The notes: generated by a model not told the origin, from the letters alone. Positions 4,463-28,721 are shown, counted from the stretch's first letter. The stretch: DNA of 64,000 nucleotides from Nitrospirae bacterium MYbinv3 (GCA_002753395.1 PEAB01000009.1:5127-69126); one strand, 5' to 3'. A program made the numbers and translations.

Positions 4463-5140
4463 TTGCAGATGAAGATAGTTATCCTGTATGCCGTGGCTGT
4501 TGAGGGGCAATTGATAAATGAAACCAGTTTTTTGGGGCACAACGTTTTTTCGTATGAAACTGGTATGGGCAAGGTCAACGCTGCGCACATCTGTACACTG
4601 GCCATAGAGAGGCACTGTCCTGACCTTGTTATCTCAATTGGGATATGTGGGGCCTACCCGGGGACGGATATACAAATAGGGGACGTGGCCATTGCTGAAA
4701 GGGAGGTCTATGGCGATGAGGGTGTTGTCTTAAAAGACGGCTTTCACGGGTTGGAAAAAATCGGGATTGCCCTGTTTAAGGATGCAGATATGGAGTTCTT
4801 CAACGTCTTTGAGTTTGACAGGAGACTGATTGATAACGTCTTTAAAGGGTTGTCCGCTTCAGGTATGTTTAGGTATACCAAAGGGACGTTTCTGACCCTT
4901 TCAACGTGTACTGGTACGCTTGAGCGGGCTTTGCAGTTGAAGGAGATGTTCGACCCTATCTGTGAAAATATGGAAGGAGCGGCCATTGCTCACGTATGCG
5001 CCATCAGTCACACGCCATTGCTTGAGATCAGGGGCGTGAGCAATATCGTAGAGGACAGGGATATGAGCAAGTGGAACATAGAGCAAGCTGTAGAAAACTG
5101 CCAACAATCTGTTATACTACTTATAAATTCTATGAGGTAA
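4463..5140 (+). CDS. mqnB: Futalosine hydrolase (MTA/SAH nucleosidase family)
   Basis: GMGKVNAA, GICGAY, EVYGDEG, ENMEGAAIAHVC, RGVSNIVEDRD motifs. Confidence 0.8.
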   Translation: MQMKIVILYAVAVEGQLINETSFLGHNVFSYETGMGKVNAAHICTLAIERHCPDLVISIGICGAYPGTDIQIGDVAIAEREVYGDEGVVLKDGFHGLEKIGIALFKDADMEFFNVFEFDRRLIDNVFKGLSASGMFRYTKGTFLTLSTCTGTLERALQLKEMFDPICENMEGAAIAHVCAISHTPLLEIRGVSNIVEDRDMSKWNIEQAVENCQQSVILLINSMR

Positions 5141-11033: not shown

Positions 11034-11981
11034 TTACTTGTGAGCGCTCTGGGTGTGCGACTTGCCTTTATCCAGTTTACCCATCAGTTTAAGCGTGTAC
11101 GATACGAGGTGCCAGCGGTCATCCTCTTTCAGGGTGTCCTCGTAAGAAGGCATTCCAGTGCCATCTAAACCTGAGGTAAACGTCATATAGATATTCTCAG
11201 CGCTTGAGCCTTTCTTTAGCTCACCGGTTTGGAAGTTAAACGGCACGATCTTTTCACCCCAGTCATCCTTGATCTCTTCTGACTTGCTGCCATCACCCTT
11301 GCCGGTTTCACCGTGGCATTCCCAGCACTTCATGTTCTTATAAATGACCTTACCCTTGTTTACGGACTCCTCACTGCCTACCCACTTGGGTTTCTTTACA
11401 TCTATTGGTTTACAGGCCTGCTCCTCTGTAAACCTTGATGAAAAGGTCTTTATGTAGCTCTTGACGGCCTTTCTCTCATCAAACGGGATGCTCTTCAGAT
11501 CCGGCATAAACGACCGCGGTATCCCGTTGGTGATAGTGAGCAGTAAGTCTTCATCCGAGGGGAGACAACCCGTTGCTGTGGAACGAAACCTGTAAAGCCC
11601 CAGGGTAAAGTCCCTGGGACGGATCTCAATAATACGCCCTGTTGACTCCTCTTTACGTAATATCCCGGATGGCCCTTTACCGTTTCCTTCCTTACCATGG
11701 CATACCATACAACGGACTTTATATATCTTTTCACCTATCTTTGCCTCGGCAGCCTCATCTGCCTCAACCACGGCCCTCAAGCCTACGGATAGAAACATTA
11801 TACACAACAGCACCGTAAGCACGTACTTAAATCTTATCTCATGTAGCGGGCGACTAACACCATACGTATGGCTCATGTGGCTCACCCCTTTAGCTGGTCT
11901 ATCCATATATACCTCTTTTGCTATGAAGTATTGTCTATAAACAGGGCCAGACCCTGTTTTACCTTCTCTTAAGTCTGCCAC
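11034..11981 (-). CDS. Membrane-anchored diheme cytochrome c
   Basis: CMVCH and CWECH, one TM helix, PRDFT.G.YRFRST and GTGMPSY motifs; true start probably downstream of 11981. Confidence 0.85.
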   Translation of the reverse strand: MADLREGKTGSGPVYRQYFIAKEVYMDRPAKGVSHMSHTYGVSRPLHEIRFKYVLTVLLCIMFLSVGLRAVVEADEAAEAKIGEKIYKVRCMVCHGKEGNGKGPSGILRKEESTGRIIEIRPRDFTLGLYRFRSTATGCLPSDEDLLLTITNGIPRSFMPDLKSIPFDERKAVKSYIKTFSSRFTEEQACKPIDVKKPKWVGSEESVNKGKVIYKNMKCWECHGETGKGDGSKSEEIKDDWGEKIVPFNFQTGELKKGSSAENIYMTFTSGLDGTGMPSYEDTLKEDDRWHLVSYTLKLMGKLDKGKSHTQSAHK

Positions 11982-13393
11982 TACTTACTACCCTTTGAAG
12001 AGTCCCTGATATAAGCAACGACATCCACAATGTCCTGATTATTTAGCGCAAAATCCTCTTTTCCAAACGGCGGCATAGATGTTCCTTCTCTTCCGTCACG
12101 TATTGTAACGGCTAGAAACTCGGGATCGACCATCTTTGTAACTGTGGGGTTTTTAAGGTTTATACCAATGAGGTTCTCTCCGCCTTTGGCGTCCTGACCA
12201 TGACAAACGGCGCAGTGAGCAGCGTAAAGCTCCTTACCGTGATTGACGTCTCCTGTTAAGTCCTTAATCGGAAAGGGTTCGTGTGCCTCAGCGGGTCTCT
12301 TGCTTGCTATATAGCCTATTATGGATTTGACATCATCCTCACTGAGGCCGGAGGCCACTGTTTTCCATGCGGTCATCTGAGTGCCGTTGCGGCCCTCTTT
12401 GATGATCGTTTCGAGGTTTTTGTCATCAGCGATTTTCAAAAACGACGGATTCATTATCGCCGGTATTGTGCGCTTAAGAACCTCATCGTATAAACTTTGT
12501 GTGCCCTCTCCATGACAGGCAGAACAGAAAGTCTTGTACAAGGTCTCTCCTTCCTGTTTTGGCGGCTGTGCATATGTCTTGTATCTATACGCCTTTGGTA
12601 ACTCATCAGATCTCAGTGTCAATGCAAAGATGGTCAAGAGGTCTGACTCGGGGCCCTTGAGTTTGACCTTCATCTCACTCGTTGGGACGATTGCGCGAGG
12701 GTCATCAAAGTGCTGTTTTAACCAGGTTGGCACCGTGTGATCTCCGATGACATGCTTCATGGAGAAGTATGCAATTGGTTGATTACCTACGCCATCTAAG
12801 GGTTTTCCAAGGTCTCCCCCTACCTTGTTTATCTTGTGGCAACCTTGACAGCCCTTTTCTCTAAAGAGTCTATCGCCCTCGGCCACTTTATCACCGCCCT
12901 TTTTACTTAGCATGTCAAAGTCATGACACTTGGCACAAGAGCTCTGGATGTAGCTCAGCGGCAGGGTTGGATAATCCCAGTAGGTGTGTCCTTTGGCGTG
13001 TGCCTCTCTCTTGTTTGTGGCGCTGCCCTGTCCCTCGTGACAGACGGTACAGCCAAACTTATCCACCGGGTGGTTTGCTATGTAATCACCGCTGTGTTTC
13101 TTAAAAGGGAGTTTGGCATTTGCCACAAGCGGGTTGTCAATACCGATATGGCAGCTCGTGCAACGATCTTCCTTGTTGAAGGCGCTAAGGTATATCTGCT
13201 GCAGCTTCACCGGTATGGCCTCAGCCCTTTTTCTGGCTGCATCATCCTTTGCGTTTTTGATCAACAGGTCCTTGTATTCGAGCTGGTAGTACTTCCACTC
13301 AGGCATTACCCCATTGAATGCCACTAATGCCATGTAAGTCAGGAAAAGCAGCGATGATATCAATAGTACAGATAAATAAAATCTACTATACAT
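11981..13393 (-). CDS. Hexaheme cytochrome c, N-terminal membrane anchor
   Basis: Six CxxCH: CTSCH, CTVCH, CAKCH, CQGCH, CSACH, CAVCH. Confidence 0.9.
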   Translation of the reverse strand: MYSRFYLSVLLISSLLFLTYMALVAFNGVMPEWKYYQLEYKDLLIKNAKDDAARKRAEAIPVKLQQIYLSAFNKEDRCTSCHIGIDNPLVANAKLPFKKHSGDYIANHPVDKFGCTVCHEGQGSATNKREAHAKGHTYWDYPTLPLSYIQSSCAKCHDFDMLSKKGGDKVAEGDRLFREKGCQGCHKINKVGGDLGKPLDGVGNQPIAYFSMKHVIGDHTVPTWLKQHFDDPRAIVPTSEMKVKLKGPESDLLTIFALTLRSDELPKAYRYKTYAQPPKQEGETLYKTFCSACHGEGTQSLYDEVLKRTIPAIMNPSFLKIADDKNLETIIKEGRNGTQMTAWKTVASGLSEDDVKSIIGYIASKRPAEAHEPFPIKDLTGDVNHGKELYAAHCAVCHGQDAKGGENLIGINLKNPTVTKMVDPEFLAVTIRDGREGTSMPPFGKEDFALNNQDIVDVVAYIRDSSKGSK

Positions 13394-13438
13394 TTTTACC
13401 TCTTAGTTTATTATTCAATTTGTTAATCTCATCCGCCA

Positions 13439-14995
13439 TCAATGGATCGGCCACTGGTCCTTTGACCAATAAAATTCCCAGTTAGGTCCACGCAGCTCGG
13501 TAGCAAAGTATGTGAGTATCACGTAGCTGACCAAAAACATCACAAACATCGCCATAGCGCCCAACCTGGTTGAACCAGTCCTCTTAATAACATGCAGCGA
13601 CCATAGAATCACAAATCCGACCCAAATACTGCCAGGATTTACAAACGTGATTATAATCTGTGGAATATCAGGAAACCAGTTCCTAAGCCAGCCGAACTTT
13701 ACAGCAAAGATTAACATCCCTATTATCACTATCACGCTAATAACGAAGGCCTCCAACGACACGTTTCTACCCTGTTTGTCAGTAAACCAGATACCGACAT
13801 TGTACAGCTCTCTGTCGAGGTATGGTATTAGGACAAGCCCAAGGAGTGCCAGAGACGGCAGCCCTACACCACCCATGAAGGCCGAGTATGACAGCAGCTC
13901 CTGAAGACCAAGAAAGTACCACGGGGCCTTTGCAGGATTCTCCGGTATTAGCGGATTTGCCAGCTCCTTAAGTGGTGCGTCTACGTAGTAAGAGTACACC
14001 AGCGCAACAGCCAGGGTGAACATTAAAACGGCCAACTCTGCTACCAACAGGTTTGGCCAGCTCATCACGGTATTTTCTACGTCTCTATCCACGGCTGGGG
14101 TCTTACCTTGGGCAAGCTCCATAAGACCATAGGTCTTGTAAGTGGGGAATATGCCACCAGTCTTCTGAGGGGGAAACACATAGCCTGAGTCGCTCTCCTG
14201 TGCTGTAAAGACCTCTGGTTTTGTCATCCCGCCGTCTTTTCTTATACGCCAGAAGTGTATACCAATAAACACGTAGATCACCATTGGTAAGACCATGACG
14301 TGAAACATGTACACCCTGTTAAGTGCCTCTTTACCAGGTACCAGACCAGCAAGAAAAAACTCCGTAGATAAAGTCCCTACGTCAAAGAACCGAGTTATAT
14401 TCAGAGAATCGGTAAGCTCCTTTGGCGACTGCATGATGTTTGCTACGATAACCAAGGCCCAGTACGACAACTGATCCCACGGTAGTAGGTACCCCGTGAG
14501 GTTGAGCACATATACAAGGATCAAGAGCACGATGCCGATGACCCAGTTAAACTCCCTTCCGTTCTTGTACGATCCGGTAAAAAACACCCTGGCCATGTGC
14601 AGGAGCACAAAGATGATCATCCCCTCGCCGGCCCACTTGTGCATGTTCCTCATGACCTTGCCGCCAAAAACAACGAAGTTTATATTCTTAACAGACTTGA
14701 AGGCATTCTCCACTGACGGGTTGTAGTACACCATCAGGAAGACACCTGTGGCCACAACAGCCAAAAACAGGAAAAATGACATAAGACCCAGCCCAAGCGT
14801 GTAGGTAGGTCGTAGGGTGTTTATGTGTGTCTTTACGCCCTGTATGTGCATAAAGAAGTTGTTGTAGATTGCCGCTGCCCTTGTCTTATCAGAGGTAGGG
14901 GGTCCATTTCTGAAGACGGAGCCGACAAAGGTATTACCTATTGCCTTTAAATTATCTGTTAATCGAGCAAGTCCTGATTGACCATTATCGTTCAT
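13439..14995 (-). CDS. Cytochrome b of a Rieske/cyt b complex (b6-like N part fused to subunit IV-like C part)
   Basis: His pairs in RNMHKW...LLHMAR and MFHVMV...GIHFW; GYLLPWDQ; APWYFLGLQELL in place of PEWY. Confidence 0.9.
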   Translation of the reverse strand: MNDNGQSGLARLTDNLKAIGNTFVGSVFRNGPPTSDKTRAAAIYNNFFMHIQGVKTHINTLRPTYTLGLGLMSFFLFLAVVATGVFLMVYYNPSVENAFKSVKNINFVVFGGKVMRNMHKWAGEGMIIFVLLHMARVFFTGSYKNGREFNWVIGIVLLILVYVLNLTGYLLPWDQLSYWALVIVANIMQSPKELTDSLNITRFFDVGTLSTEFFLAGLVPGKEALNRVYMFHVMVLPMVIYVFIGIHFWRIRKDGGMTKPEVFTAQESDSGYVFPPQKTGGIFPTYKTYGLMELAQGKTPAVDRDVENTVMSWPNLLVAELAVLMFTLAVALVYSYYVDAPLKELANPLIPENPAKAPWYFLGLQELLSYSAFMGGVGLPSLALLGLVLIPYLDRELYNVGIWFTDKQGRNVSLEAFVISVIVIIGMLIFAVKFGWLRNWFPDIPQIIITFVNPGSIWVGFVILWSLHVIKRTGSTRLGAMAMFVMFLVSYVILTYFATELRGPNWEFYWSKDQWPIH

Positions 14996-15014
14996 AACTT
15001 ATATCCCTCTCTTG

Positions 15015-15491
15015 TTAAGCATATCTAATTTTTGTACCAGGAGGAACCTCCCGCGATGCGTCAACTACAAGGCTGCCATCTACGTCCTGTGTAATCTCAA
15101 ACCACGGCAACCCCCTAGGGGCGGGACCTCCAACTACCTTACCGGTAATGTTGAACTTTGAACCGTGGCATGGACACTGAAAGCCTGTCTCTGTGCTGTA
15201 GACCACACATCCCAGGTGGGTACACACGCTTGATATTGCGTAAAAGCCATTCTCATCAGAGAATATAAACACCTTCTTGTCATCGAGTTTCTTTACCGAA
15301 CCCACAGGGAAATTCTCAGGCTTACCGATCTTAAAGCTTCTTGACTCCTCGTACCTCACGTCGGCCCTAAAGTATCTTATAACACCAGCCAAAACGCCAA
15401 GACCTGCTGCTATCGCTGCAGCAAAGGCCGATAGAGTAAGAAAGTCTCGCCTGGAGACTCCTCCTTCCTTGTCTTGGGTCTCACTCATCAT
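15015..15491 (-). CDS. Rieske 2Fe-2S protein
   Basis: Tat-like SRRDFL, CTHLGC and CPCHGS, GPAPRGL. Confidence 0.95.
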   Translation of the reverse strand: MMSETQDKEGGVSRRDFLTLSAFAAAIAAGLGVLAGVIRYFRADVRYEESRSFKIGKPENFPVGSVKKLDDKKVFIFSDENGFYAISSVCTHLGCVVYSTETGFQCPCHGSKFNITGKVVGGPAPRGLPWFEITQDVDGSLVVDASREVPPGTKIRYA

Positions 15492-17317
15492 CTCTGTAAC
15501 ACCTCCTTAAATAAGAATCTTTCCATTGTTATAGCGTCAACAGGACACCTTTTAGCGCAGAAACCGCATCTGATGCACCTGTCCTCATCTTTGATAATGG
15601 CCGAACCGTACCCCTCAGGGGACTTGCCGTACCTGTTTGTGTAAAGTCTTGTAAGGGTCTCATCGCCCTTGATCTTATCTAAACTGACCAGCCGCAGACA
15701 GTACTCCGGGCATACGTCGGCACAGCCGCCACACAGTATACACCTGTCACCGTTAAAGATAGTGTTCACCGCACAGTTAAGACACCTGCTGCCCTGCTCC
15801 TCAGCCACCTCCTTGACAAAGCCTTTCTCTACAAGGTTGTATATGCTCTTGGCTCGTTCCTCAGTTGGGGCTGTGGGCACGTGCTGTCTCTTTAGCTTTT
15901 CAAAGTTACCTGGATGTGCCACCTCATTGTTTGCAACCTCTTTGGCAAAGCTCTCCTTGTGCATCTCGTATGTCTTAAGCGACAGCGGCTGTTCGCTTAT
16001 GTAGTTGTGGATATGTATAGCCGCCTTCTTACCGCTTGCCACGGCGTCGATAACCAGCTTAGGACCGTAGGCCAGATCGCCTGCCACATATAGCCCTTTA
16101 AGCGAGGTAGACACACCGTCTGGGTTAACGCTTATCATGCCGCGTTCGGTCATCTTAACCTCCAGGCCCGACTCGCCAAGGAAGGACAGGTCGAAGGTCT
16201 GCCCTACGGCAAAAAACACCGTATCGGTAGGCACGGTAATCGTATCTGAGTCGTCGTACCTGGGATTGAACCGTCCCTCACCGTCAAATAACGATATACA
16301 CCTCTTAAACGTCATAGATATCACACGGTTCTTGCCATCTAGGTTTATCGACAGAGGGCCATAGCTGTTTATCCTCTCTATGCCTTCCTCTTCTCCCTCC
16401 TCGATCTCTACTTTGTCAGCCAGCATTTGTTCAAACTCCTCGATACAGACTAAGGTAACGTACTCTACTCCCTTATGTCTCACCGAGGTCCTTGCCACAT
16501 CATAGGCAACGTTACCGCCACCGATGACCACTACCTTAGGCCCTATATGTACCTCTTTACCACAAAAGACATCTCTCAGGAAATCGACCCCGCCCAAAAC
16601 GCCTGCGCCCTTGCCGCCTTCTATTGGCAGCATCCTAGACCTCTTGGCACCCACTGCTATCAGTACCGCCAGGGAATTATCATACAACTCCTTCAGGTTG
16701 ACGTCCTTTCCTACCTGAACACCGAGCTTTATCTCAACACCCAGGGCCTTGATGGCGTCTATCTCTGCCTGCAATACCTCTCTGGAAAGCCTGTAGGGAG
16801 GTATTCCAACGGCGCACATCCCCCCTGCAATCTTCTCCATCTCGTAGATAACGGGCTTATATCCCATAAGAGCCAGTTCATGGGCACAGGCAAGCCCCGC
16901 TGGCCCTGCCCCAATTATAGATACCGGCTTAGAGGTATCCTCAGCAATGCCTATAATGCCACTGCCTTTTTCCTTAAAACCTTTTTTGAGGTTATCTACA
17001 AAAGCATTCTTGTCTTTGTATATCTCCACCCCAAACTTCTCAGTGACAAACCTCTTAAGCGCCCTGATAGACACAGCTGCGTCTATGCCCTTTCTCCTGC
17101 AGGCCAACTCACATGGGGCTGCGCAGATACGGCCGCATATTGAGGCTAGCGGGTTGGGCGTCCTCGCTATCCAATATGCCTTTTCGTAATCTCCATCGGC
17201 AATAGCCTTAACATATCCCCGTGAGTCCGTGTTCACAGGACATCCCGTCTGGCACTTTATGTTCTGCTTCCAGTACTTATAGTCGGGAATCACTACTTCA
17301 AATATACGTTTAATCAT
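15488..17317 (-). CDS. FAD/NAD(P)-binding iron-sulfur oxidoreductase (GltD/NfnB-like with C-terminal 2x[4Fe-4S])
   Basis: CQTGCP and CGRICAAPCELAC clusters, IIGAGPAG, VIGGGNVA, C-terminal CILCGGCADVCP and CIRCGFCAKRCP; overlaps the Rieske start by 4 nt. Confidence 0.9.
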   Translation of the reverse strand: MIKRIFEVVIPDYKYWKQNIKCQTGCPVNTDSRGYVKAIADGDYEKAYWIARTPNPLASICGRICAAPCELACRRKGIDAAVSIRALKRFVTEKFGVEIYKDKNAFVDNLKKGFKEKGSGIIGIAEDTSKPVSIIGAGPAGLACAHELALMGYKPVIYEMEKIAGGMCAVGIPPYRLSREVLQAEIDAIKALGVEIKLGVQVGKDVNLKELYDNSLAVLIAVGAKRSRMLPIEGGKGAGVLGGVDFLRDVFCGKEVHIGPKVVVIGGGNVAYDVARTSVRHKGVEYVTLVCIEEFEQMLADKVEIEEGEEEGIERINSYGPLSINLDGKNRVISMTFKRCISLFDGEGRFNPRYDDSDTITVPTDTVFFAVGQTFDLSFLGESGLEVKMTERGMISVNPDGVSTSLKGLYVAGDLAYGPKLVIDAVASGKKAAIHIHNYISEQPLSLKTYEMHKESFAKEVANNEVAHPGNFEKLKRQHVPTAPTEERAKSIYNLVEKGFVKEVAEEQGSRCLNCAVNTIFNGDRCILCGGCADVCPEYCLRLVSLDKIKGDETLTRLYTNRYGKSPEGYGSAIIKDEDRCIRCGFCAKRCPVDAITMERFLFKEVLQR

Positions 17318-17521
17318 ATATAGTCCTCTCTATATGCTTAGATTAATTAACGGCAGATGATCCTTAATCACACAAGGTTAAATAGAATCATCAACCGGAC
17401 TACATTACCACTAACCTGACACCGTTGACTTTTTACATGATACAGGATTCATTATGCTTTGTTCAAGTTTTTTTTGTAAATGAGATGCATAAGAATTTCA
17501 TGGGGGACAATAAAAATTAAT

Positions 17522-23203: not shown

Positions 23204-24264
23204 TCCAAGGCAGCATCCGTAAGATAGGAAACTTCAAACTCCAGGTCAGACCTTTTTTGGATCGAGGCAAGATAATTTATAAATAGTTTTGTCTCTTGAC
23301 TTGTCACTACAGGGAAGCCGTAATTGCTGTTTGTGTGCTTTAAGGCATTCTTACCCTCTTTTAGCAGCCTTTCCTTAACAAATGAGATGTGCTTGATCAA
23401 TCTGTTTCTTAAATATTCATTAAGACTATCTATCGCATTTTCATTTACAACAGATGATATTGTTTTATACAGCCCTGGGTTTATCTCATATCCTATGCTA
23501 CTTCTGCATGAGGCCATAGATGCCAAAATAGTGGTACCAACACCTAAAAATGGGTCCAACACCATATCTCCCTTAGTTGAAAACATATTTATTAATCTGT
23601 ATGCTATTTCAAAGGGAAAAGCACCGCTTCTGTTTCTGCAAGACTTATCAAGCATGTTCTGAGGTGTCCCCTTTACATCCCACACATCGGAGTGCCACAC
23701 ATTTCTTTCTTCCCAAAAGAAGGCGCTCTGTTGTCTATTAAACTTCTCGCTTGCAGTCTTGAATTCACGTTTCGTCCCTTTTCTAAAAATCAGGATATAC
23801 TCATGCTCTAGCGTCACATAGGCCCCGGCTGGTAACATCCCGGAGCCCATGAACTTGTTGGGTGCATTGGTCTGCTTTCTCCATATAATGTTTGTCAGAT
23901 TACTAAATCCTAGATCCAAACAGTAGTTGAGGATGTACGAGTGGTTTGGATAAAGCCTAAAAACACCATCTACCGTTCGCGTTGCATCCCCAATGTTTAT
24001 GCAAGCAATACCTCCATTCTTCAGAACTCTATACAGTTCACCCCATACGGGATACATCTGTTCGTGCATTAATCTAAATGCCAGATTTCCGTCATTATCC
24101 CTTAAGGCGGAGGCAATCTGATCATCCCGCCCTGCAAACAGCTCATCCCACATCTCTATCATTGGGTAGGGAGGAGATGTTACGACAACGTCTACTGATT
24201 CAGCGGTTATCTCACTCATCGCCTCTGATGACTTGAGAATTATACTGTGTGATGTATGGATCAT
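23158..24264 (-). CDS. Solitary DNA methyltransferase, beta class (N4-C/N6-A)
   Basis: VVTSPPY precedes VLDPFLGVGTT; no nuclease gene adjacent; the upstream in-frame extension is repeat-derived. Confidence 0.88.
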   Translation of the reverse strand: MIHTSHSIILKSSEAMSEITAESVDVVVTSPPYPMIEMWDELFAGRDDQIASALRDNDGNLAFRLMHEQMYPVWGELYRVLKNGGIACINIGDATRTVDGVFRLYPNHSYILNYCLDLGFSNLTNIIWRKQTNAPNKFMGSGMLPAGAYVTLEHEYILIFRKGTKREFKTASEKFNRQQSAFFWEERNVWHSDVWDVKGTPQNMLDKSCRNRSGAFPFEIAYRLINMFSTKGDMVLDPFLGVGTTILASMASCRSSIGYEINPGLYKTISSVVNENAIDSLNEYLRNRLIKHISFVKERLLKEGKNALKHTNSNYGFPVVTSQETKLFINYLASIQKRSDLEFEVSYLTDAALDHRPSLFMSLMGSEK

Positions 24265-24438
24265 GTCGACAGGCAGTCCCTTGACCCCATTATATCGCAT
24301 GTTTATACACAATGCTCATATGCTGTGTACTTGTTGACAAACTTGATATCATTAACCATGCTAACATAAAGCGGAGTAAACTTCATAGTCATTTTATATA
24401 ATATCCAATGGCTTATAAGTACCTGCCCATAATTAATT

Positions 24439-24540
24439 GGTAGTCTTGCACAAGTAGTGGTGATAGTAAACTTAACACCCTCCCCTAACCCCTCCCATCA
24501 AGGGAGGGGGATTGAATATCACTACCTCTGCGGGACTAAT
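24439..24540. mobile_element. Family B MITE-like element (about 102 bp)
   Basis: Starts GGTAGTCTTGCACAAGTAGTG, internal CCCCTCCC-ATCAA-GGGAGGGG hairpin; right end slightly degraded. Confidence 0.75.
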
Positions 24541-24560
24541 TTGTTCTCCATCATACAAAT

Positions 24561-24695
24561 GGCGTCCAAAGCTATCCTCTTTAAAAAGCATGGTAAATTG
24601 TTTATGGTTTCAAGATTATGGATTCCCACTTTCGTGGGAATGACAGTAATGGCCGTTTTCCAAACATGTCATTCCTGTGTAAACAGGAATCCAGG
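24561..24695. repeat. Family C variant
   Basis: ATTCCCACTTTCGTGGGAAT and ATTCCTGTGTAAACAGGAAT; closely related inverted copy at about 48034-48200. Confidence 0.75.
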
Positions 24696-24727
24696 TAATA
24701 GTTCACCCATATGTGTATTAAGAAGGT

Positions 24728-24805
24728 AGGGCTTTACCCTCCCTCAGACCCACCCACAAGGGGACCAGTCCCCTTGTGCCCATTATATCGCATGTTTATC
24801 CACAA
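24728..24805 (+). repeat. Family A repeat plus 27-bp tail also present at 24286-24312
   Basis: CCCATTATATCGCATGTTTAT(A/C)CACAA follows an A-element end in both places. Confidence 0.75.
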
Positions 24806-24854
24806 AGTTTCTATCGTATACTGAACTATTACGAATCCAGAAAGCGTAAAAGCT

Positions 24855-24990
24855 CAGCAATTCTCACTGAATTTGTAGAATGGCTTTTTATAAGGATTTT
24901 ACTGTGTATATGAAAAATATTTTCGCGGTGTTTTTATAGTATATTACTTATATATCAATAAATTACATTCATTATCAGTGAGAATCGCTG
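24855..24990. mobile_element. Family E MITE copy 1 (136 bp)
   Basis: TIR CAGCAATTCTCACTGA / TCAGTGAGAATCGCTG (15/16); perfect 9-bp TSD GTAAAAGCT; IHF consensus at 24953-24965. Confidence 0.9.
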
Positions 24991-25028
24991 GTAAAAGCTA
25001 AGTTATCATGAAATATAAAGAAGATACG

Positions 25029-25182
25029 TCCAAAGCTATAGTTGTTCATCTTCTGGATTCCTGCCTGCGCAGGAATGACATCTACAAGCTAAAAGCGCCA
25101 CTTGTTGTCATTCCCGCGAAAGCGGGAATCCATCTTCAAAACCGTATTAAACGCCTATTAAGGAAAGCTGCAAAACACAGAA
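25029..25182. repeat. Family C element, inverted counterpart of 20892-21045
   Basis: Reverse complement aligns over about 150 bp with scattered mismatches. Confidence 0.85.
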
Positions 25183-25205
25183 TAAATTTGCCCTGACAAT
25201 CGCTG

Positions 25206-25342
25206 CAGCAATTCTCAATGAATTTGCCGAATGGCTTTTTACAACAGTTTTGCTGTGGGTATAAAATGTTTTTTTCGTAATGATCTTACAACAGATTGCT
25301 TAGATATCAATATGTTATATGTGTTTTCAGTGAGAACCGCTG
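25206..25342. mobile_element. Family E MITE copy 2 (137 bp)
   Basis: TIR CAGCAATTCTCAATGA / TCAGTGAGAACCGCTG (13/16); perfect 9-bp TSD CAATCGCTG; IHF consensus at 25305-25317. Confidence 0.9.
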
Positions 25343-25516
25343 CAATCGCTGCAGTACTCTTGACAATAGAATTACATTATGTTAATTTAAATGAAACGTG
25401 TTTCGATATAAATAAGTACAGTAGTATTGTGTAGAGAGTTCTATAATATTTCGACCTTGAATTGTGTTTCACAACTCAGGAAAAGAATTAGTTGTCATTT
25501 AAGGAAGATGATTTAG

Positions 25517-26404
25517 TTGAGTGATGATGTTAAAACGCCGCAAAGCGACTTAGACTCTTTAGTAAAGAGCAATACTGGTTGTGAAAAGACAATAGAGATG
25601 CAGCTATCCGAAGATGGACAGATTTTGAGGTTGGCTATGCTTGGCGAGATGTTAGCTAGCGTTGCTCACGAACTAAATACTCCGATTGGCTTTATATCCG
25701 CTAATTTATCTAATCTAAGTAAGTTCATTGATAAAATATTCCAATTACTTAATGCATATGAACATTACGCTTCTATAAATAGCTCTAATAGTGAAAAGAT
25801 AGAAATAGACAAAATAAAGAAAGAGATAAACTATGATTACCTTAAAGCGAGAATTCCAGAAATGATGGTGAGATCTATGAAAGCTTCAGACAGTTTGAAG
25901 ACTCTTATTAGGGACGTAAAAATCTCTTCCAGGGCAGATTCTTCTAAAGCTGAACCATCTGATATAAACGAGGCGTTAGAGAGTGCGGTTCATATTATTA
26001 TGTCTGAATATAAGAGCAAGGTAAAAATTAATAAAGATTATGATAAACTACCTCTGGTAGAATGTTACATAGGGAAATTGAATCAGGTATTTTTAAATAT
26101 ACTGTCAAATTCGTGTGAAGCTATAGAAGGGACAGGGGAGATCACAGTGAGAACCCGACATATAAAAGAAACTGTGACGATAGAGATTACAGATACAGGC
26201 AGTGGAATGTCTGATAAGGTACTAGAGAAGATTTTTCTACCTTTTTTTACAACAAAGGCAATAGGTTACGGCACAGGTCTGGGTCTTTCGATCAGCCATA
26301 GAATTATTGAGCAACATGGTGGTACACTATCAGCTGATAGCAAGTTAGGACAGGGGACAAAGTTTACTATAAAGTTACCAATCTGCCAGAAACAACAGAT
26401 ATGA
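25517..26404 (+). CDS. Soluble histidine kinase without sensor domain (NtrB-like)
   Basis: AHELNTP, LNQVFLNILSN, DTGSGM, FFTTK..GYGTGLGL. Confidence 0.88.
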   Translation: MSDDVKTPQSDLDSLVKSNTGCEKTIEMQLSEDGQILRLAMLGEMLASVAHELNTPIGFISANLSNLSKFIDKIFQLLNAYEHYASINSSNSEKIEIDKIKKEINYDYLKARIPEMMVRSMKASDSLKTLIRDVKISSRADSSKAEPSDINEALESAVHIIMSEYKSKVKINKDYDKLPLVECYIGKLNQVFLNILSNSCEAIEGTGEITVRTRHIKETVTIEITDTGSGMSDKVLEKIFLPFFTTKAIGYGTGLGLSISHRIIEQHGGTLSADSKLGQGTKFTIKLPICQKQQI

Positions 26405-26450
26405 AAACTACCTCCATTAAAGTGGGTAGATACAAGAAGGAGACATAAAA

Positions 26451-27242
26451 ATGAAAACAGACAAGGCAAAAACAGTGATATTGTGTGTGGATGATGAACA
26501 AGACATTCTAGACTCTTTACATGATACGTTTATGGATACTTATGATGTAAGAACAGCAATTAATGGGGCTGATGCCTTAAAAATAGTGCGTGGTGAAAAT
26601 ATAGCCGTAATCATTTCTGACCAAAGGATGCCAGTAATGACAGGTTCAGAGTTTCTTGCAGAGGTAAATAAGATTAAACCCAAAGTTAAAAAGATACTAT
26701 TAACAGGTTACAGCGATATCAATGCAGCCATAGACGCTATAAACAAAGGCTCTGTCAATAGTTATATACATAAGCCATGGGATGACTCGCATCTTATTAA
26801 GACAGTTGAAAATTTGGTTAACTTATACAATGCTGATATGTTCGCAAACAATATGCTTACTGAGAGCATGGACATCAAAGCTAAAATAGATCAATGGAAG
26901 TACCAACTTGAATTGTTAGAGAAGTTTATAGAAAGTTGTACGATGAGTGCCTGTGTTTTGGATAAAAAAGAGAAGATTGTATACATGAATAAAAAGGGTT
27001 TAGGGCTTCTTAAATATTCAAATATCAGGGATGTTAAAAATAAGGAACTAAAGAGTGTTTTTATAATAAACGATAATAAGAAGAAGGAGTTTAGAGAATT
27101 ATACGAAAAAGGAGGTATATCTAACTTATCGTTGGATGCAAAGTGCTCAGATGGTCAGATTGCCGGTATGCAGGCAAGTTTAACATTCATCGATGATCAT
27201 GTTATTGGTGTGTTCTTCAATTTGCCCAATAGTCGTCTATAA
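26451..27242 (+). CDS. Response regulator (REC plus PAS-like)
   Basis: ILCVDDE, IISDQRMP, LLTGY, KPW; C-terminal YMNKKG PAS-like segment. Confidence 0.85.
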   Translation: MKTDKAKTVILCVDDEQDILDSLHDTFMDTYDVRTAINGADALKIVRGENIAVIISDQRMPVMTGSEFLAEVNKIKPKVKKILLTGYSDINAAIDAINKGSVNSYIHKPWDDSHLIKTVENLVNLYNADMFANNMLTESMDIKAKIDQWKYQLELLEKFIESCTMSACVLDKKEKIVYMNKKGLGLLKYSNIRDVKNKELKSVFIINDNKKKEFRELYEKGGISNLSLDAKCSDGQIAGMQASLTFIDDHVIGVFFNLPNSRL

Positions 27243-27365
27243 AAAGGTGCATTTGTCAAAGAGACTGAGAACCACATTCAATAAATTTAGACAACTTTAC
27301 ATTCGTCATGTGCTATTATTAGTACATATGAATTATGTAAGTGCGATTGTATAGCGACCTGTTAG

Positions 27366-28721
27366 ATGAATAAGATGAATGATTTATCAAGAAAAGAAAT
27401 GATAGCTTTTATTGAATCAAATATGCTTTTTCAGAACATTTTGTGTGATGAGTGTTTCGATGAGGATGCCTTAAATAAAGCTTATGATATAATTAGTATT
27501 TCGAGTGCGAAAAAAGATGAATTAATCATAAAGGAATGGACAAGAGGTGAATCTTTAATCCTTATATTTAAAGGCGTAGCAGGGGTATTTATTGAAACAG
27601 ACGATGGTAAGGAAGTGAAAATAGCAACAGTGGAAGAAAGTGGCTTTTGGGGAGAAATGTATAGAGTAGAAGGTAAAAATCGCACCCCAATAATGAAAGC
27701 TGAGACGGATTGTCTGTTTGGAATCATTTATAGATATGAGTTCTGGGAATATTTCTACATATATCCTGAGATAGGTAGAAATGTGTTTTGGGGTGCTAAC
27801 CAGAACCTTGACATGTCTAATATAGGAATTGTAAGAGATATTGTGAAAAAAAGTGCAGAAAATCTCTCAAAAGTTAAAGATAAGCTTGAAAAACAAATAC
27901 AAGAAAAGACAAATCAACTGCGGCAAGATGACATTCAAAATTTAGAAATCGATAGAATGCATAGCTTAGGAATAATAGCAGCTGGTATAGCGCATGAGAT
28001 AAATAATCCCTTGAGTTTTATTAAAAGTGGTGTTGGTTTTATAGAAAAGATGGTTTCTAACTTGATAAAATATGGAAAGCATTGGAAAGAACAGGCAATA
28101 ATAAATATTTCTATCAACAAAGGCGCTGACACCATAGATGAGAAAACACTTGATCTAGATAATCTACAACGTTCGATAGTAAAGAAGATCAGCTCGATGA
28201 ATCGTGGTATTGAAAGAATTTCGAGAATAGTAAACACTTTACTATACATAGTATATCTAGATATTGATCCTTTAGTCAGTGCCGATTTAAATAGTAATAT
28301 AGATGAAGTTGTTAATAATTTAGGCACTAAGTATGCTAAAAATATCCAGTTGGTTAAGCAATTAGGCAAAATACCATTGTTAGTCTGTTCATCTAATGAG
28401 ATAAATCATTGTCTTCTTCAAATATTGACTAATGCAATAGATGCAATAGAGGGGTATGGTACAATAACCATAAGCACATTATACGATGAAGAAAGTAAGA
28501 TGATTGTAATAATGATAACGGATAATGGTAAGGGAATGACTAACGAGGTGTTGAAACAGGTTTTTATCCCTTTTTTCACAACAAAGCCTGTTGGTTCTGG
28601 TGCTGGCCTTGGAATGTATATAACAGAAGGGATTGTAAAACGTCACGGTGGTACAGTCGATATAACCAGCAAACCAGGTGAAGGAACAACAGTTACCCTA
28701 AAATTCCCCATATCTATCTAA
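27366..28721 (+). CDS. Cyclic-nucleotide-binding domain histidine kinase
   Basis: cNMP-like GFWGEM...RT...KAETDC; AHEINNPL, DNGKGM, FFTTKPVGSGAGLG. Confidence 0.85.
   Translation: MNKMNDLSRKEMIAFIESNMLFQNILCDECFDEDALNKAYDIISISSAKKDELIIKEWTRGESLILIFKGVAGVFIETDDGKEVKIATVEESGFWGEMYRVEGKNRTPIMKAETDCLFGIIYRYEFWEYFYIYPEIGRNVFWGANQNLDMSNIGIVRDIVKKSAENLSKVKDKLEKQIQEKTNQLRQDDIQNLEIDRMHSLGIIAAGIAHEINNPLSFIKSGVGFIEKMVSNLIKYGKHWKEQAIINISINKGADTIDEKTLDLDNLQRSIVKKISSMNRGIERISRIVNTLLYIVYLDIDPLVSADLNSNIDEVVNNLGTKYAKNIQLVKQLGKIPLLVCSSNEINHCLLQILTNAIDAIEGYGTITISTLYDEESKMIVIMITDNGKGMTNEVLKQVFIPFFTTKPVGSGAGLGMYITEGIVKRHGGTVDITSKPGEGTTVTLKFPISI

What the first reader, a model, noticed from the sequence alone, without database searches (positions are those of the whole stretch)
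11034..17317. Anammox-type Rieske/cytochrome b operon with an NAD(P)-flavoprotein and 8 c-type hemes
Seen: one operon encodes a GltD/NfnB-like FAD/Fe-S protein, Rieske, fused cytochrome b, hexaheme and diheme cytochromes c. The b subunit has b6-type spacing (14 residues) between the second His pair, APWY instead of PEWY, and no Cys at the usual heme ci site (YTLGLG). Established: anammox planctomycetes have atypical bc complexes with an NAD(P) oxidoreductase subunit, proposed to bifurcate quinol electrons. Inference: this organism may link the menaquinone pool (mqnB is 6 kb away) to NAD(P)H/ferredoxin and a periplasmic heme wire.
Basis: partly seen in the sequence, partly recalled or inferred. 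Interest (0 to 1): 0.7.

Follow-up and report, generated by a model that had tools for sequence, protein, structure and literature searches.

The report
Flavoprotein-linked Rieske/cytochrome b respiratory operon
A magnetotactic Nitrospirota bacterium carries a real five-gene operon for an unusual "complex III" with an NAD(H)-type iron-sulfur flavoprotein on the inside and eight c-type hemes on the outside; the design is known from anammox bacteria, occurs in many phyla, and its function has never been tested.

Summary
On the minus strand, 11034-17317 encodes a GltD/NfnB-like 4x[4Fe-4S] flavoprotein, a TAT Rieske protein, a fused nine-helix cytochrome b6+subunit IV, a hexaheme and a diheme cytochrome c. 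The cytochrome b has 13/14 His spacing, APWY, and no heme cN cysteine. The genes are tightly coupled (ATGA overlap).

Four subunits are homologous to the Kuenenia R/b-2 and R/b-3 complexes. The best PDB hit of the Rieske protein is Kuste4569. APWY and an N-terminal histidine (His50, equivalent to Kuste4571 His43) are shared.

"Anammox-type" is too narrow. In the flavoprotein and cytochrome b trees the window falls in a Nitrospirota/Desulfobacterota clade. That clade sits inside a large multi-phylum clade (Acidobacteriota, Chlamydiota, Verrucomicrobiota and others), separate from both anammox paralogues. This matches cytochrome b "subfamily G" of Dibrova et al.

Paralogues of the diheme cytochrome sit next to nosZ and a heme-copper oxidase in the same genome. 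In relatives the operon abuts nosZ, cbb3-like or Nxr/Nar-like genes.

Most likely it is a menaquinol:cytochrome c oxidoreductase whose low-potential branch reaches NAD+ through the flavoprotein. This mechanism is inferred, not shown. It is a new member of a known kind, of moderate interest.

The parts
17437..17480 (-). Candidate sigma-70-like promoter upstream of the flavoprotein gene, inside the 308-nt intergenic gap to the T2SS secretin gene
   Evidence: Consensus match only: TTTACA-18-CATAAT, 10 of 12. The region holds 12 such sites against 8.4 expected, so this is weak evidence.
15488..17317 (-). Cytoplasmic GltD/NfnB-like Fe-S flavoprotein, 609 aa. It has an N-terminal 2x[4Fe-4S] Fer4_20 domain, FAD and NAD(P) Rossmann domains, and a C-terminal 2x[4Fe-4S] ferredoxin domain. 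No signal peptide or TM segment.
   Evidence: Pfam and NCBIfam hits. PDB relatives are NfnABC 9bov (1.3e-76) and NfnB 4ylf (6.4e-53). All Cys motifs are conserved, and the end of beta-2 reads VCIEE where the NADPH enzymes have VYRR. No TM-like segment.
15015..15491 (-). Rieske [2Fe-2S] subunit, 158 aa, with TAT signal RRDFL, one TM anchor, and motifs CTHLGC / CPCHGSKF. Its ATG overlaps the flavoprotein stop codon (ATGA), with GGAGG upstream.
   Evidence: (best PDB hit Kuste4569).
13439..14995 (-). Fused cytochrome b6 + subunit IV, 518 aa, about 9 TM helices. Heme ligands H119/H133 and H232/H247. N-terminal extension with invariant His50. TYTLGLG in place of CxGG. APWY at 357-360.
11981..13393 (-). 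Membrane-anchored hexaheme cytochrome c, 470 aa. It has an N-terminal TM helix with PEWKYYQLEY, four multiheme-type CXXCH motifs, and two C-terminal class-I (CcoP-like) domains.
   Evidence: The N-terminal anchor motif is shared with the Kuenenia hexaheme. tblastn to the Kuenenia R/b-3 octaheme gives 6e-34.
11034..11981 (-). Diheme class-I cytochrome c, 315 aa from a GTG start that overlaps the hexaheme stop by 1 nt. The true start may lie further downstream. It has one hydrophobic signal/anchor segment at 54-72.
   Evidence: Paralogues in the same genome lie directly upstream of nosZ (56% identity) and next to a heme-copper oxidase (51% identity).

Best explanation
The operon encodes one membrane complex of the Rieske/cytochrome b superfamily, belonging to cytochrome b subfamily G.

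Proposed mechanism:
1. Menaquinol is oxidised at the Qo site, which is formed by the fused b6+subunit IV protein and the Rieske protein.
2. One electron goes to the Rieske cluster and on through the anchored hexaheme and the diheme cytochrome c. From there it reaches periplasmic or high-potential terminal enzymes, here N2O reductase and a heme-copper oxidase.
3. The second electron crosses the membrane through hemes bL and bH. It is not used to reduce quinone at a Qi site. It passes instead, possibly through an extra heme ligated by His50 at the dimer interface, into the four [4Fe-4S] clusters and FAD of the cytoplasmic flavoprotein, which reduces NAD+.

This would give a sulfur-oxidising, Wood-Ljungdahl autotroph NADH from menaquinol without spending proton-motive force.

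Shown here: the gene set, the cofactor motifs, the topology signals, homology to the anammox complexes, conserved linkage, and linkage of the c-cytochrome family to nosZ and oxidase genes.

Inferred: physical association of the flavoprotein, the direction of electron flow, the NAD versus NADP preference, and the extra heme.
For: - Parts and cofactor motifs.
- Tight coupling: ATGA overlap with an internal GGAGG. The operon is self-contained; its neighbours are murein recycling and T2SS genes.
- Conserved linkage: flavoprotein-Rieske-cyt b-multiheme in 19/19 close loci and across at least 10 phyla. The flavoprotein and cytochrome b trees show the same major clades.
- Homology to the Kuenenia complexes. 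For those complexes, co-migration of subunits, high-potential Rieske proteins (+303 and +335 mV) and an AF3 path b heme -> 4 FeS -> FAD are reported (Hauser 2025, PMC12954380).
- No obvious Qi chemistry: no heme cN cysteine, and a b6-type WRIRKDGG rather than a bc1-type His/Asp.
- His50 aligns with Kuste4571 His43 and Kustd1481 His62.
- In the same genome, the operon's Rieske protein keeps the potential-raising Ser (CPCHGSKF), while the canonical b6-linked Rieske protein has Gly (CPCHGGKY).
- High-potential outlet: P0005 paralogues lie next to nosZ and a heme-copper oxidase in the own genome. In relatives, nosZ, cbb3-like or type-II DMSO-reductase genes lie inside or right after the operon.
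- Physiology of Nitrospirae magnetotactic bacteria (WL autotrophy, sulfur oxidation, denitrification): PMC8353452.
- Menaquinone by the futalosine route.
Against:
- The same module occurs in apparent heterotrophs and aerobes (Acidobacteriota, Verrucomicrobiota, environmental Chlamydiota). These have no obvious need to make NADH from quinol.
- His50 is equally invariant in subfamily members with no adjacent flavoprotein gene (21 of 22), so it is not a specific marker of flavoprotein wiring.
- The genome also has a complete complex I with NuoF and NuoD, so reverse electron transport is available anyway.
- The predicted gain in Rieske potential from Ser with Phe, compared with Gly with Tyr, is modest.
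- The Kuenenia mechanism itself is still a proposal.
Confidence: 0.45

Rival explanations
1. Same complex, opposite direction. The flavoprotein oxidises NAD(H) and feeds electrons through its Fe-S chain into the b hemes. The complex then works as an NADH:menaquinone or NADH:cytochrome c oxidoreductase, or the flavoprotein primes or relieves the Q cycle. It does not make NADH.
For: - The module is common in heterotrophic and aerobic phyla.
- The Glu-type beta-2 motif (VCIEE) of the window clade suggests NADH, the catabolic carrier, whereas Kuenenia has YRR.
- The operon is linked to terminal oxidases and NosZ, as expected of a respiratory input module.
- The GltD/NfnB modules of known enzymes normally take hydride from NAD(P)H (family knowledge; PDB relatives).
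Against: - There is no recognisable Qi site to hand the electrons to quinone.
- Reducing quinone at Qo would need a second electron from the high-potential Rieske side, which is uphill.
- The genome already has complex I.
- The Ser-bearing Rieske protein fits bifurcation better (PMC12954380).
Confidence: 0.3
2. The flavoprotein is wired to the complex, but its physiological partner is not NAD(P). It could be ferredoxin or another low-potential carrier docking at the ferredoxin-like domain, or the FAD could itself bifurcate as in NfnB.
For: - The closest solved relatives are bifurcating Nfn-type enzymes: 9bov/9bp5, 9n5u, 4ylf, 5jca.
- WL autotrophy needs reduced ferredoxin (PMC8353452).
- The NADPH-type YRR motif is absent.
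Against: - Both Rossmann motifs (GAGPAG and GGGNVAYDVAR) are intact.
- No NfnA-like [2Fe-2S]/FAD partner gene is in the operon.
- Ferredoxin reduction from menaquinol would need even lower b-heme potentials.
Confidence: 0.15
3. The flavoprotein is only co-transcribed. It is a soluble enzyme with a separate role, and the rest is an ordinary menaquinol:cytochrome c reductase with a normal Q cycle.
For: - No direct evidence of association exists in this organism.
- Some subfamily members lack an adjacent flavoprotein gene (22 loci).
Against: - Adjacency is conserved across many phyla despite shuffling of gene order (Flavo-Rieske-b, Rieske-Flavo-b, Rieske-b-Flavo, Flavo-b-Rieske).
- The genes are translationally coupled.
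- The flavoprotein and cytochrome b trees are congruent.
- Subunits co-migrate in Kuenenia (cited in PMC12954380).
- The heme cN / Qi features are missing.
Confidence: 0.07

Closest known systems
Kuenenia stuttgartiensis R/b-2 complex (Kuste4569-4574; Kartal 2013, de Almeida 2016, Hauser 2025)
   Same: - It has a Rieske protein, an NAD(P)-type 4-cluster flavoprotein, a b6-like cytochrome b with an N-terminal His extension, a subunit-IV part with 5 TM helices and APWY, and a TM-anchored hexaheme with the PEWK.YQ.EY motif.
- The window's Rieske protein hits 9rk4 at 1.5e-26.
- Identities to the window's proteins: Rieske 46%, flavoprotein 34%, b6 part 38%, subunit-IV part 51%.
   Different: - b6 and subunit IV are separate genes, and b6 carries the heme cN cysteine (WCMGG).
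- Gene order is Rieske-flavoprotein-b.
- The flavoprotein has the YRR (NADPH-like) motif.
- An HAO-like octaheme follows, rather than a diheme c.
- It belongs to a separate clade in both trees.
Kuenenia R/b-3 complex (Kustd1480-1485)
   Same: - It has the same subunit types, APWY, and the His62 equivalent.
- Its Rieske protein has Ser with Phe (CPCHGSGF), the same Ser/Phe pairing as the window's CPCHGSKF.
- Its octaheme aligns with the window's hexaheme at 6e-34.
- Cytochrome b (b6 part) is 42% identical and the flavoprotein 37% identical.
   Different: - Cytochrome b is split and has CxGG.
- Gene order is Rieske-b-flavoprotein-SUIV.
- It has a 947-aa octaheme.
- The flavoprotein carries the YRR motif and groups with Chloroflexota flavoproteins, not with the window.
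Cytochrome b subfamily G / clade G' of Dibrova et al. 2013 and 2017 (PMC5600118)
   Same: - It is taxonomically very broad.
- It co-occurs with large NAD(P)-binding Fe-S oxidoreductases.
- Long (fused) members lack CxGG and short members keep it. This is reproduced here: 58 fused without Cys, 57 split with Cys, 1 exception.
   Different: I could not place the window against their reference sequences (for example DAMO_0768). Assignment to G or G' therefore rests on the described features, not on a joint tree.
Cytochrome b6f complex (cyanobacteria and chloroplasts) and the genome's own b6-type complex on contig C128
   Same: - Cytochrome b6 chains are the best PDB hits (1.4e-32).
- The helix-D His spacing is 14 residues.
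- The Rieske fold is shared.
   Different: - The window's complex has no heme cN cysteine and a fused subunit IV with 5 helices.
- It has APWY rather than PEWY.
- It has an N-terminal extension.
- It has multiheme c in place of cytochrome f.
- It has a flavoprotein subunit.
- The own b6 lies outside the clade (98*).
NfnB / GltD / NfnABC (Bfu-type) NADPH-binding Fe-S flavoproteins
   Same: - It shares the Fer4_20 two-cluster domain plus the FAD and NAD(P) Rossmann domains.
- E-values are 1e-76 to 1e-41 to solved structures.
   Different: - It has an extra C-terminal 2x[4Fe-4S] ferredoxin domain.
- It has no NfnA or GltB partner gene.
- CIE replaces YRR at the 2'-phosphate site.
- It is always encoded with a Rieske/cytochrome b pair.

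Membership tests
Rieske/cytochrome b (bc1/b6f) superfamily | Rieske [2Fe-2S] boxes CxHxGC and CxCHxS/G, with an export signal and a membrane anchor | tested here: met
   CTHLGC and CPCHGS motifs, RRDFL TAT motif, TM segment at 20-38.
Rieske/cytochrome b (bc1/b6f) superfamily | Four His heme ligands on helices B and D | tested here: met
   H119/H133 and H232/H247 are invariant in 11 relatives. Spacing is 13 and 14 residues.
Rieske/cytochrome b (bc1/b6f) superfamily | PEWY-type Qo motif in the ef loop | tested here: inconclusive
   The motif position is conserved but reads APWY, with no acidic residue. 140 of 142 subfamily loci have APWY. Kuenenia R/b-1 has PEWY.
NAD(P)-oxidoreductase-bearing R/b complexes (anammox R/b-2 and R/b-3; subfamily G) | A GltD-like 4-cluster flavoprotein gene in the operon, homologous to Kuste4570 and Kustd1483 | tested here: met
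   tblastn E-values are 5e-78 to 2e-105 to the Brocadiales proteins. All Cys motifs align.
NAD(P)-oxidoreductase-bearing R/b complexes (anammox R/b-2 and R/b-3; subfamily G) | Cytochrome b clusters with R/b-2 and R/b-3, apart from canonical b6 and R/b-1 | tested here: met
   SH-aLRT 98* for the branch that excludes the own b6 and Kuenenia R/b-1. Within the clade, the window is not sister to the anammox sequences.
NAD(P)-oxidoreductase-bearing R/b complexes (anammox R/b-2 and R/b-3; subfamily G) | N-terminal extension with the His proposed to bind an inter-monomer heme b | tested here: met
   His50 aligns with Kuste4571 His43 and Kustd1481 His62. It is invariant in 137 of 138 sequences, including those without an adjacent flavoprotein gene.
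NAD(P)-oxidoreductase-bearing R/b complexes (anammox R/b-2 and R/b-3; subfamily G) | Split b6 plus subunit IV, with the heme cN CxGG cysteine (the anammox form) | tested here: not met
   The window has a single 518-aa protein with TYTLGLG. This matches the fused members of subfamily G, not the anammox form.
NAD(P)-oxidoreductase-bearing R/b complexes (anammox R/b-2 and R/b-3; subfamily G) | Physical association of the flavoprotein with the membrane complex, and quinol-driven NAD(P)+ reduction | not testable with these tools
   Only genetic linkage, translational coupling and congruent trees are available.
NfnB/GltD flavoprotein family | Fer4_20 two-cluster domain plus FAD and NAD(P) Rossmann motifs | tested here: met
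   Pfam and NCBIfam hits, PDB relatives, and motifs GAGPAG and GGGNVAYDVAR.
NfnB/GltD flavoprotein family | NADPH-type YRR motif at the end of beta-2 | tested here: not met
   The window has VCIEE where NfnABC, Kuenenia and Chloroflexota have VYRR. NADH preference is inferred from the general Rossmann-fold rule. It was not measured.
Cytochrome b6f complex proper | Heme cN cysteine, separate 3-helix subunit IV, cytochrome f | tested here: not met
   None of the three is present.

The most novel reading that the evidence does not exclude
The complex is an obligate quinol-bifurcating NAD+ reductase. Each menaquinol oxidised would send one electron to N2O or O2 through the heme wire, and one to NAD+ through bL, bH, a fifth heme bound between the two His50 residues of the dimer, and four Fe-S clusters. 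About 58 fused members keep the flavoprotein without heme cN. The exit path would therefore be the His50 heme, not heme cN. That would settle the wiring question left open for the anammox complexes and extend the mechanism to many phyla.
Probability: 0.3. Interest if true: 0.75.

Novelty: new member of a known kind. Interest (0 to 1): 0.4.

Why it matters
The function of flavoprotein-bearing Rieske/cytochrome b complexes is an open question. It has been argued almost entirely from anammox bacteria. This locus adds three things.

- A magnetotactic, sulfur-oxidising, Wood-Ljungdahl autotroph carries the module alongside a canonical b6-type complex and complex I.
- The fused variants without heme cN still keep the flavoprotein, the APWY Qo motif and the N-terminal histidine. 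This narrows the possible electron exit route.
- The c-cytochromes of the operon belong to a family encoded beside nosZ and heme-copper oxidases. This ties the high-potential branch to N2O and O2 reduction.

If the bifurcation model is right, many denitrifiers and microaerophiles would make NADH directly from quinol. That would change the energy budgets assumed for them. The organism itself is uncultured, so it is not a good test system.

Tried and rejected
- I expected the window's proteins to be sister to the Kuenenia paralogues. Both trees reject this. The anammox R/b-2 and R/b-3 proteins form their own clades.
- I tested whether His50 marks flavoprotein-linked complexes only. It does not. 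It is present in 116/116 loci with an adjacent flavoprotein gene and 21/22 without.
- I tested whether the flavoprotein compensates for a complex I that lacks its NADH module. It does not. NuoF and NuoD lie together on contig C72.
- I looked for papers on Magnetobacterium with Rieske and cytochrome b. There were none. Zhang 2021 (PMC8353452) does not discuss the operon.
- The terminator scan found nothing convincing after the diheme gene, and promoter hits are near background.
- I considered a functional link to the magnetosome cluster 12 kb away. Nothing supports it beyond proximity.
The taxonomic census is therefore a sample, not complete.
- I did not run structure prediction. The tool returns no coordinates or cofactors, so it could not test the His50-heme or docking question.
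- One search failed on a frame error and was repeated.

Full report
**1. What is there**

The minus strand of 11034-17317 holds five ORFs with small gaps or overlaps. They are P0001 (609 aa), P0002 (158 aa), P0003 (518 aa), P0004 (470 aa) and P0005 (315 aa).

- P0001 has an N-terminal Fer4_20 domain, a Pyr_redox_2 FAD/NAD(P) module and a C-terminal two-cluster ferredoxin domain. Its best NCBIfam match is PRK12771 (3.9e-118), and it also matches GltD-, NfnB- and YgfK-like families. It has no hydrophobic segment.
- P0002 is a TAT-exported (RRDFL), single-anchor Rieske protein with CTHLGC and CPCHGS motifs.
- P0003 matches cytochrome b/b6 N-terminal models (1.2e-34), and its C-terminal part matches ExtQ/subunit-IV-like models.
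- P0003 has about nine hydrophobic helices. Its heme ligands are H119/H133 and H232/H247, with 13 and 14 residues between them. APWY lies at 357-360, and TYTLGLG lies where b6 has CxGG.
- P0004 has six CXXCH motifs behind an N-terminal anchor. P0005 has two.
- The flavoprotein stop and the Rieske start overlap as ATGA, with GGAGG nine bases upstream. The hexaheme stop overlaps the proposed GTG start of the diheme gene.
- The flanking genes are unrelated: MltA/MurQ/AnmK on one side and a type II secretion secretin on the other.
- The ORF at 4463-5140 is futalosine hydrolase, above its curated cut-off.

**2. Whose genome**

The closest loci are from Candidatus Magnetobacterium casense and Ca. 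M. cryptolimnobacter (cytochrome b 87% identical). The window itself carries a magnetosome gene cluster at about 29-51 kb. The genome is 3.7 Mb and 96.6% complete.

It has three cytochrome b genes:
- this one;
- a canonical Rieske + b6 pair with YCLGG on contig C128;
- a 640-aa cytochrome b-like gene beside heme-copper oxidase subunits on C142.

It also has a complex I cluster with NuoD and NuoF.

**3. Relation to the anammox complexes**

The best solved-structure match of the Rieske protein is 9rk4 (1.5e-26), ahead of all b6f Rieske proteins. 9rk3 scores 2.2e-16. Hauser et al. 2025 identify 9rk4 as Kuste4569 and 9rk3 as Kustd1480.

I fetched Brocadiales loci using the Kuste4569 fragment and the R/b-1 and R/b-3 loci from a Kuenenia genome.

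Identities to the window's proteins:

| Complex | Rieske | Flavoprotein | b6 part | Subunit IV part | Multiheme c |
|---|---|---|---|---|---|
| R/b-2 | 46% | 34-40% | 37-38% | 44-51% | no tblastn hit reported |
| R/b-3 | 31% | 37% | 42% | 36% | octaheme 31%, E 6e-34 |

Shared derived features:
- the APWY motif, whereas Kuenenia R/b-1 has PEWY;
- an N-terminal cytoplasmic extension in which His50 aligns with Kuste4571 His43 and Kustd1481 His62, the residues that AlphaFold3 models use to bind an extra inter-monomer heme b;
- the PEWK.YQ.EY anchor motif of the multiheme subunit;
- all four Fe-S cysteine motifs of the flavoprotein.

Differences:
- The window's cytochrome b is fused and lacks the heme cN cysteine.
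- The two extra helices of its subunit-IV part lie before, not after, the conserved RGPxW helix.
- The gene order is different.
- The last gene is a diheme c rather than an HAO-like octaheme.
- The flavoprotein has VCIEE where the Kuenenia and Brocadia proteins have VYRR.

**4. The family is much wider than anammox**

A scan with an alignment of fused cytochromes b returned 80 further loci.

The flavoprotein-Rieske-cytochrome b-multiheme arrangement recurs in many groups: Nitrospirota, Thermodesulfobacteriota, non-anammox Planctomycetota, Abyssobacteria, Omnitrophota, Calditrichota, Acidobacteriota, Verrucomicrobiota, Chlamydiota (Waddliaceae, Parachlamydiaceae) and Zixibacteria. In Chloroflexota it occurs with a different gene order.

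In a sample of 301 Nitrospirota genomes, about 60 have a full-length orthologue. These include 7 of the 9 genomes sampled from the window's own family (the window's genome among them).

The flavoprotein trees show three groups:
- Brocadiales R/b-2;
- Brocadiales R/b-3 together with Chloroflexota;
- a 56-row multi-phylum clade (SH-aLRT 97-98).

The window sits in the third group, inside a 19-row Nitrospirota + Thermodesulfobacteriota clade (100*).

The cytochrome b tree is congruent. It places the genome's own b6 and Kuenenia R/b-1 outside the whole group (98*).

Fusion and loss of CxGG go together: 58 fused without Cys, 57 split with Cys, and one exception.

This is what Dibrova et al. 2017 describe for cytochrome b subfamily G: it is taxonomically diverse, it co-occurs with NAD(P)-binding Fe-S oxidoreductases, and its long members lack CxGG. 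The kind is therefore known. I found no paper describing it in magnetotactic Nitrospirota.

**5. Clues to function**

The high-potential side:
- P0005 has paralogues in the same genome directly upstream of nosZ (56% identity) and beside a heme-copper oxidase (51% identity).
- In a related Nitrospirota locus (L017), a TAT-type nosZ (830 bits) and a nosR-like gene follow the diheme genes.
- In Desulfocapsaceae and Desulfobacteraceae loci, cbb3-like CcoN/CcoO genes follow.
- In L015 and L016, a four-gene type II DMSO-reductase cassette (Nxr/Nar-like) sits between cytochrome b and the hexaheme. L092 has a gap of similar size at the same place, which I did not annotate.

The low-potential side:
- There is neither a heme cN site nor a bc1-type Qi His/Asp. 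The b6-type WRIRKDGG motif is kept.
- The operon's Rieske protein keeps the Ser that raises cluster potential (CPCHGSKF).
- The canonical Rieske protein of the same menaquinone-based cell has Gly at that position (CPCHGGKY).
- Hauser et al. measured +303 and +335 mV for the Ser-bearing Kuenenia proteins. They argue that this implies a very low heme bP potential, enough for NAD(P)+ reduction.

Nitrospirae magnetotactic bacteria are predicted to be Wood-Ljungdahl autotrophs that oxidise sulfur and denitrify near the oxic-anoxic transition. A quinol-driven source of NADH would suit them.

**6. What remains open**

- Association of the flavoprotein with the complex is inferred from linkage, coupling and tree congruence only.
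- The direction of electron flow is unknown. The presence of the module in many heterotrophs, and the NADH-like motif, keep the reverse direction alive.
- His50 is invariant whether or not a flavoprotein gene is adjacent. It is a subfamily signature, not proof of wiring.
- Earlier notes of this scan describe the same module in other phyla, and its links to nosZ and cbb3. I had already reached those points independently. I treat the notes as agreement, not as support.

**7. Verdict**

The operon is real and was accurately described. Subunit by subunit it is homologous to the anammox NAD(P)-linked Rieske/cytochrome b complexes. It belongs to a separate and very widespread branch of the same family. 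It is a new member of a known, biochemically uncharacterised kind. Its interest lies in the open mechanism, not in this particular locus.

Noticed in passing
window 29000-51000, minus strand: A magnetosome gene cluster. It has two LemA/MamQ-like genes, a trypsin-PDZ MamE/O-like gene, a TPR MamA-like gene, two cation-efflux MamB/M-like genes, a magnetochrome-PDZ MamP-like gene, an MreB/actin MamK-like gene, a Volactin-family actin, a ParA-like ATPase, and TauE- and HEAT-repeat proteins. It starts about 12 kb from the operon.
   Followed up: partly
L001:7621-7980 and L002:7620-7967: Ca. Magnetobacterium cryptolimnobacter and Ca. M. casense carry a second, N-terminally shorter Rieske gene between the Rieske and cytochrome b genes (62-63% identical to P0002). 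The window has only a 19-nt gap there.
   Followed up: no
L015:5504-11745, L016:9772-16241; probably L092: In L015 and L016 a type II DMSO-reductase cassette (TAT-signal Mo subunit of about 1160 aa, Fe-S subunit, heme-b gamma subunit, chaperone; Nxr/Nar/Ebd-like) is inserted between the cytochrome b and hexaheme genes. L092 has a gap of about 6 kb at the same place, but I did not annotate it.
   Followed up: partly
own genome C158:33686-49954: A nos cluster led by a P0005-like diheme cytochrome c: nosZ, a NosR-like gene, an ABC pair, and two copies of a 243-316-aa protein that is also found between the diheme genes of the Desulfobacterota operons and has no NCBIfam family match. These are followed by a 583-aa membrane protein and further c-type cytochromes.
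   Followed up: partly
own genome C142:1380-9232: A 640-aa cytochrome b-like protein lies next to a heme O synthase-like gene, heme-copper oxidase subunits I and II, and another P0005-like diheme cytochrome c. This is a third cytochrome b system in the genome.
   Followed up: no
flavoprotein alignment, window residues 287-300: The R/b-linked flavoproteins fall into two dinucleotide-motif classes. YRR is found in the Kuenenia/Brocadia-type R/b-2 clade (which also holds one Scalindua paralogue), R/b-3 and Chloroflexota. C/S-[LI]-E is found in the window's multi-phylum clade and in a second Scalindua R/b-2 paralogue. Ca. Scalindua sediminis carries one of each.
   Followed up: partly
window 24000-28000: G+C drops to 0.34-0.38, against about 0.45-0.49 elsewhere. 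The stretch holds a DNA methylase gene, histidine kinases and a response regulator, and lies between the T2SS/GGDEF-EAL genes and the magnetosome cluster. It may be an island border.
   Followed up: no
G265 (same family, 6.0 Mb genome): One relative carries two copies of the flavoprotein gene, 73% and 53% identical to P0001. The module can therefore be duplicated or acquired twice within this family.
   Followed up: no
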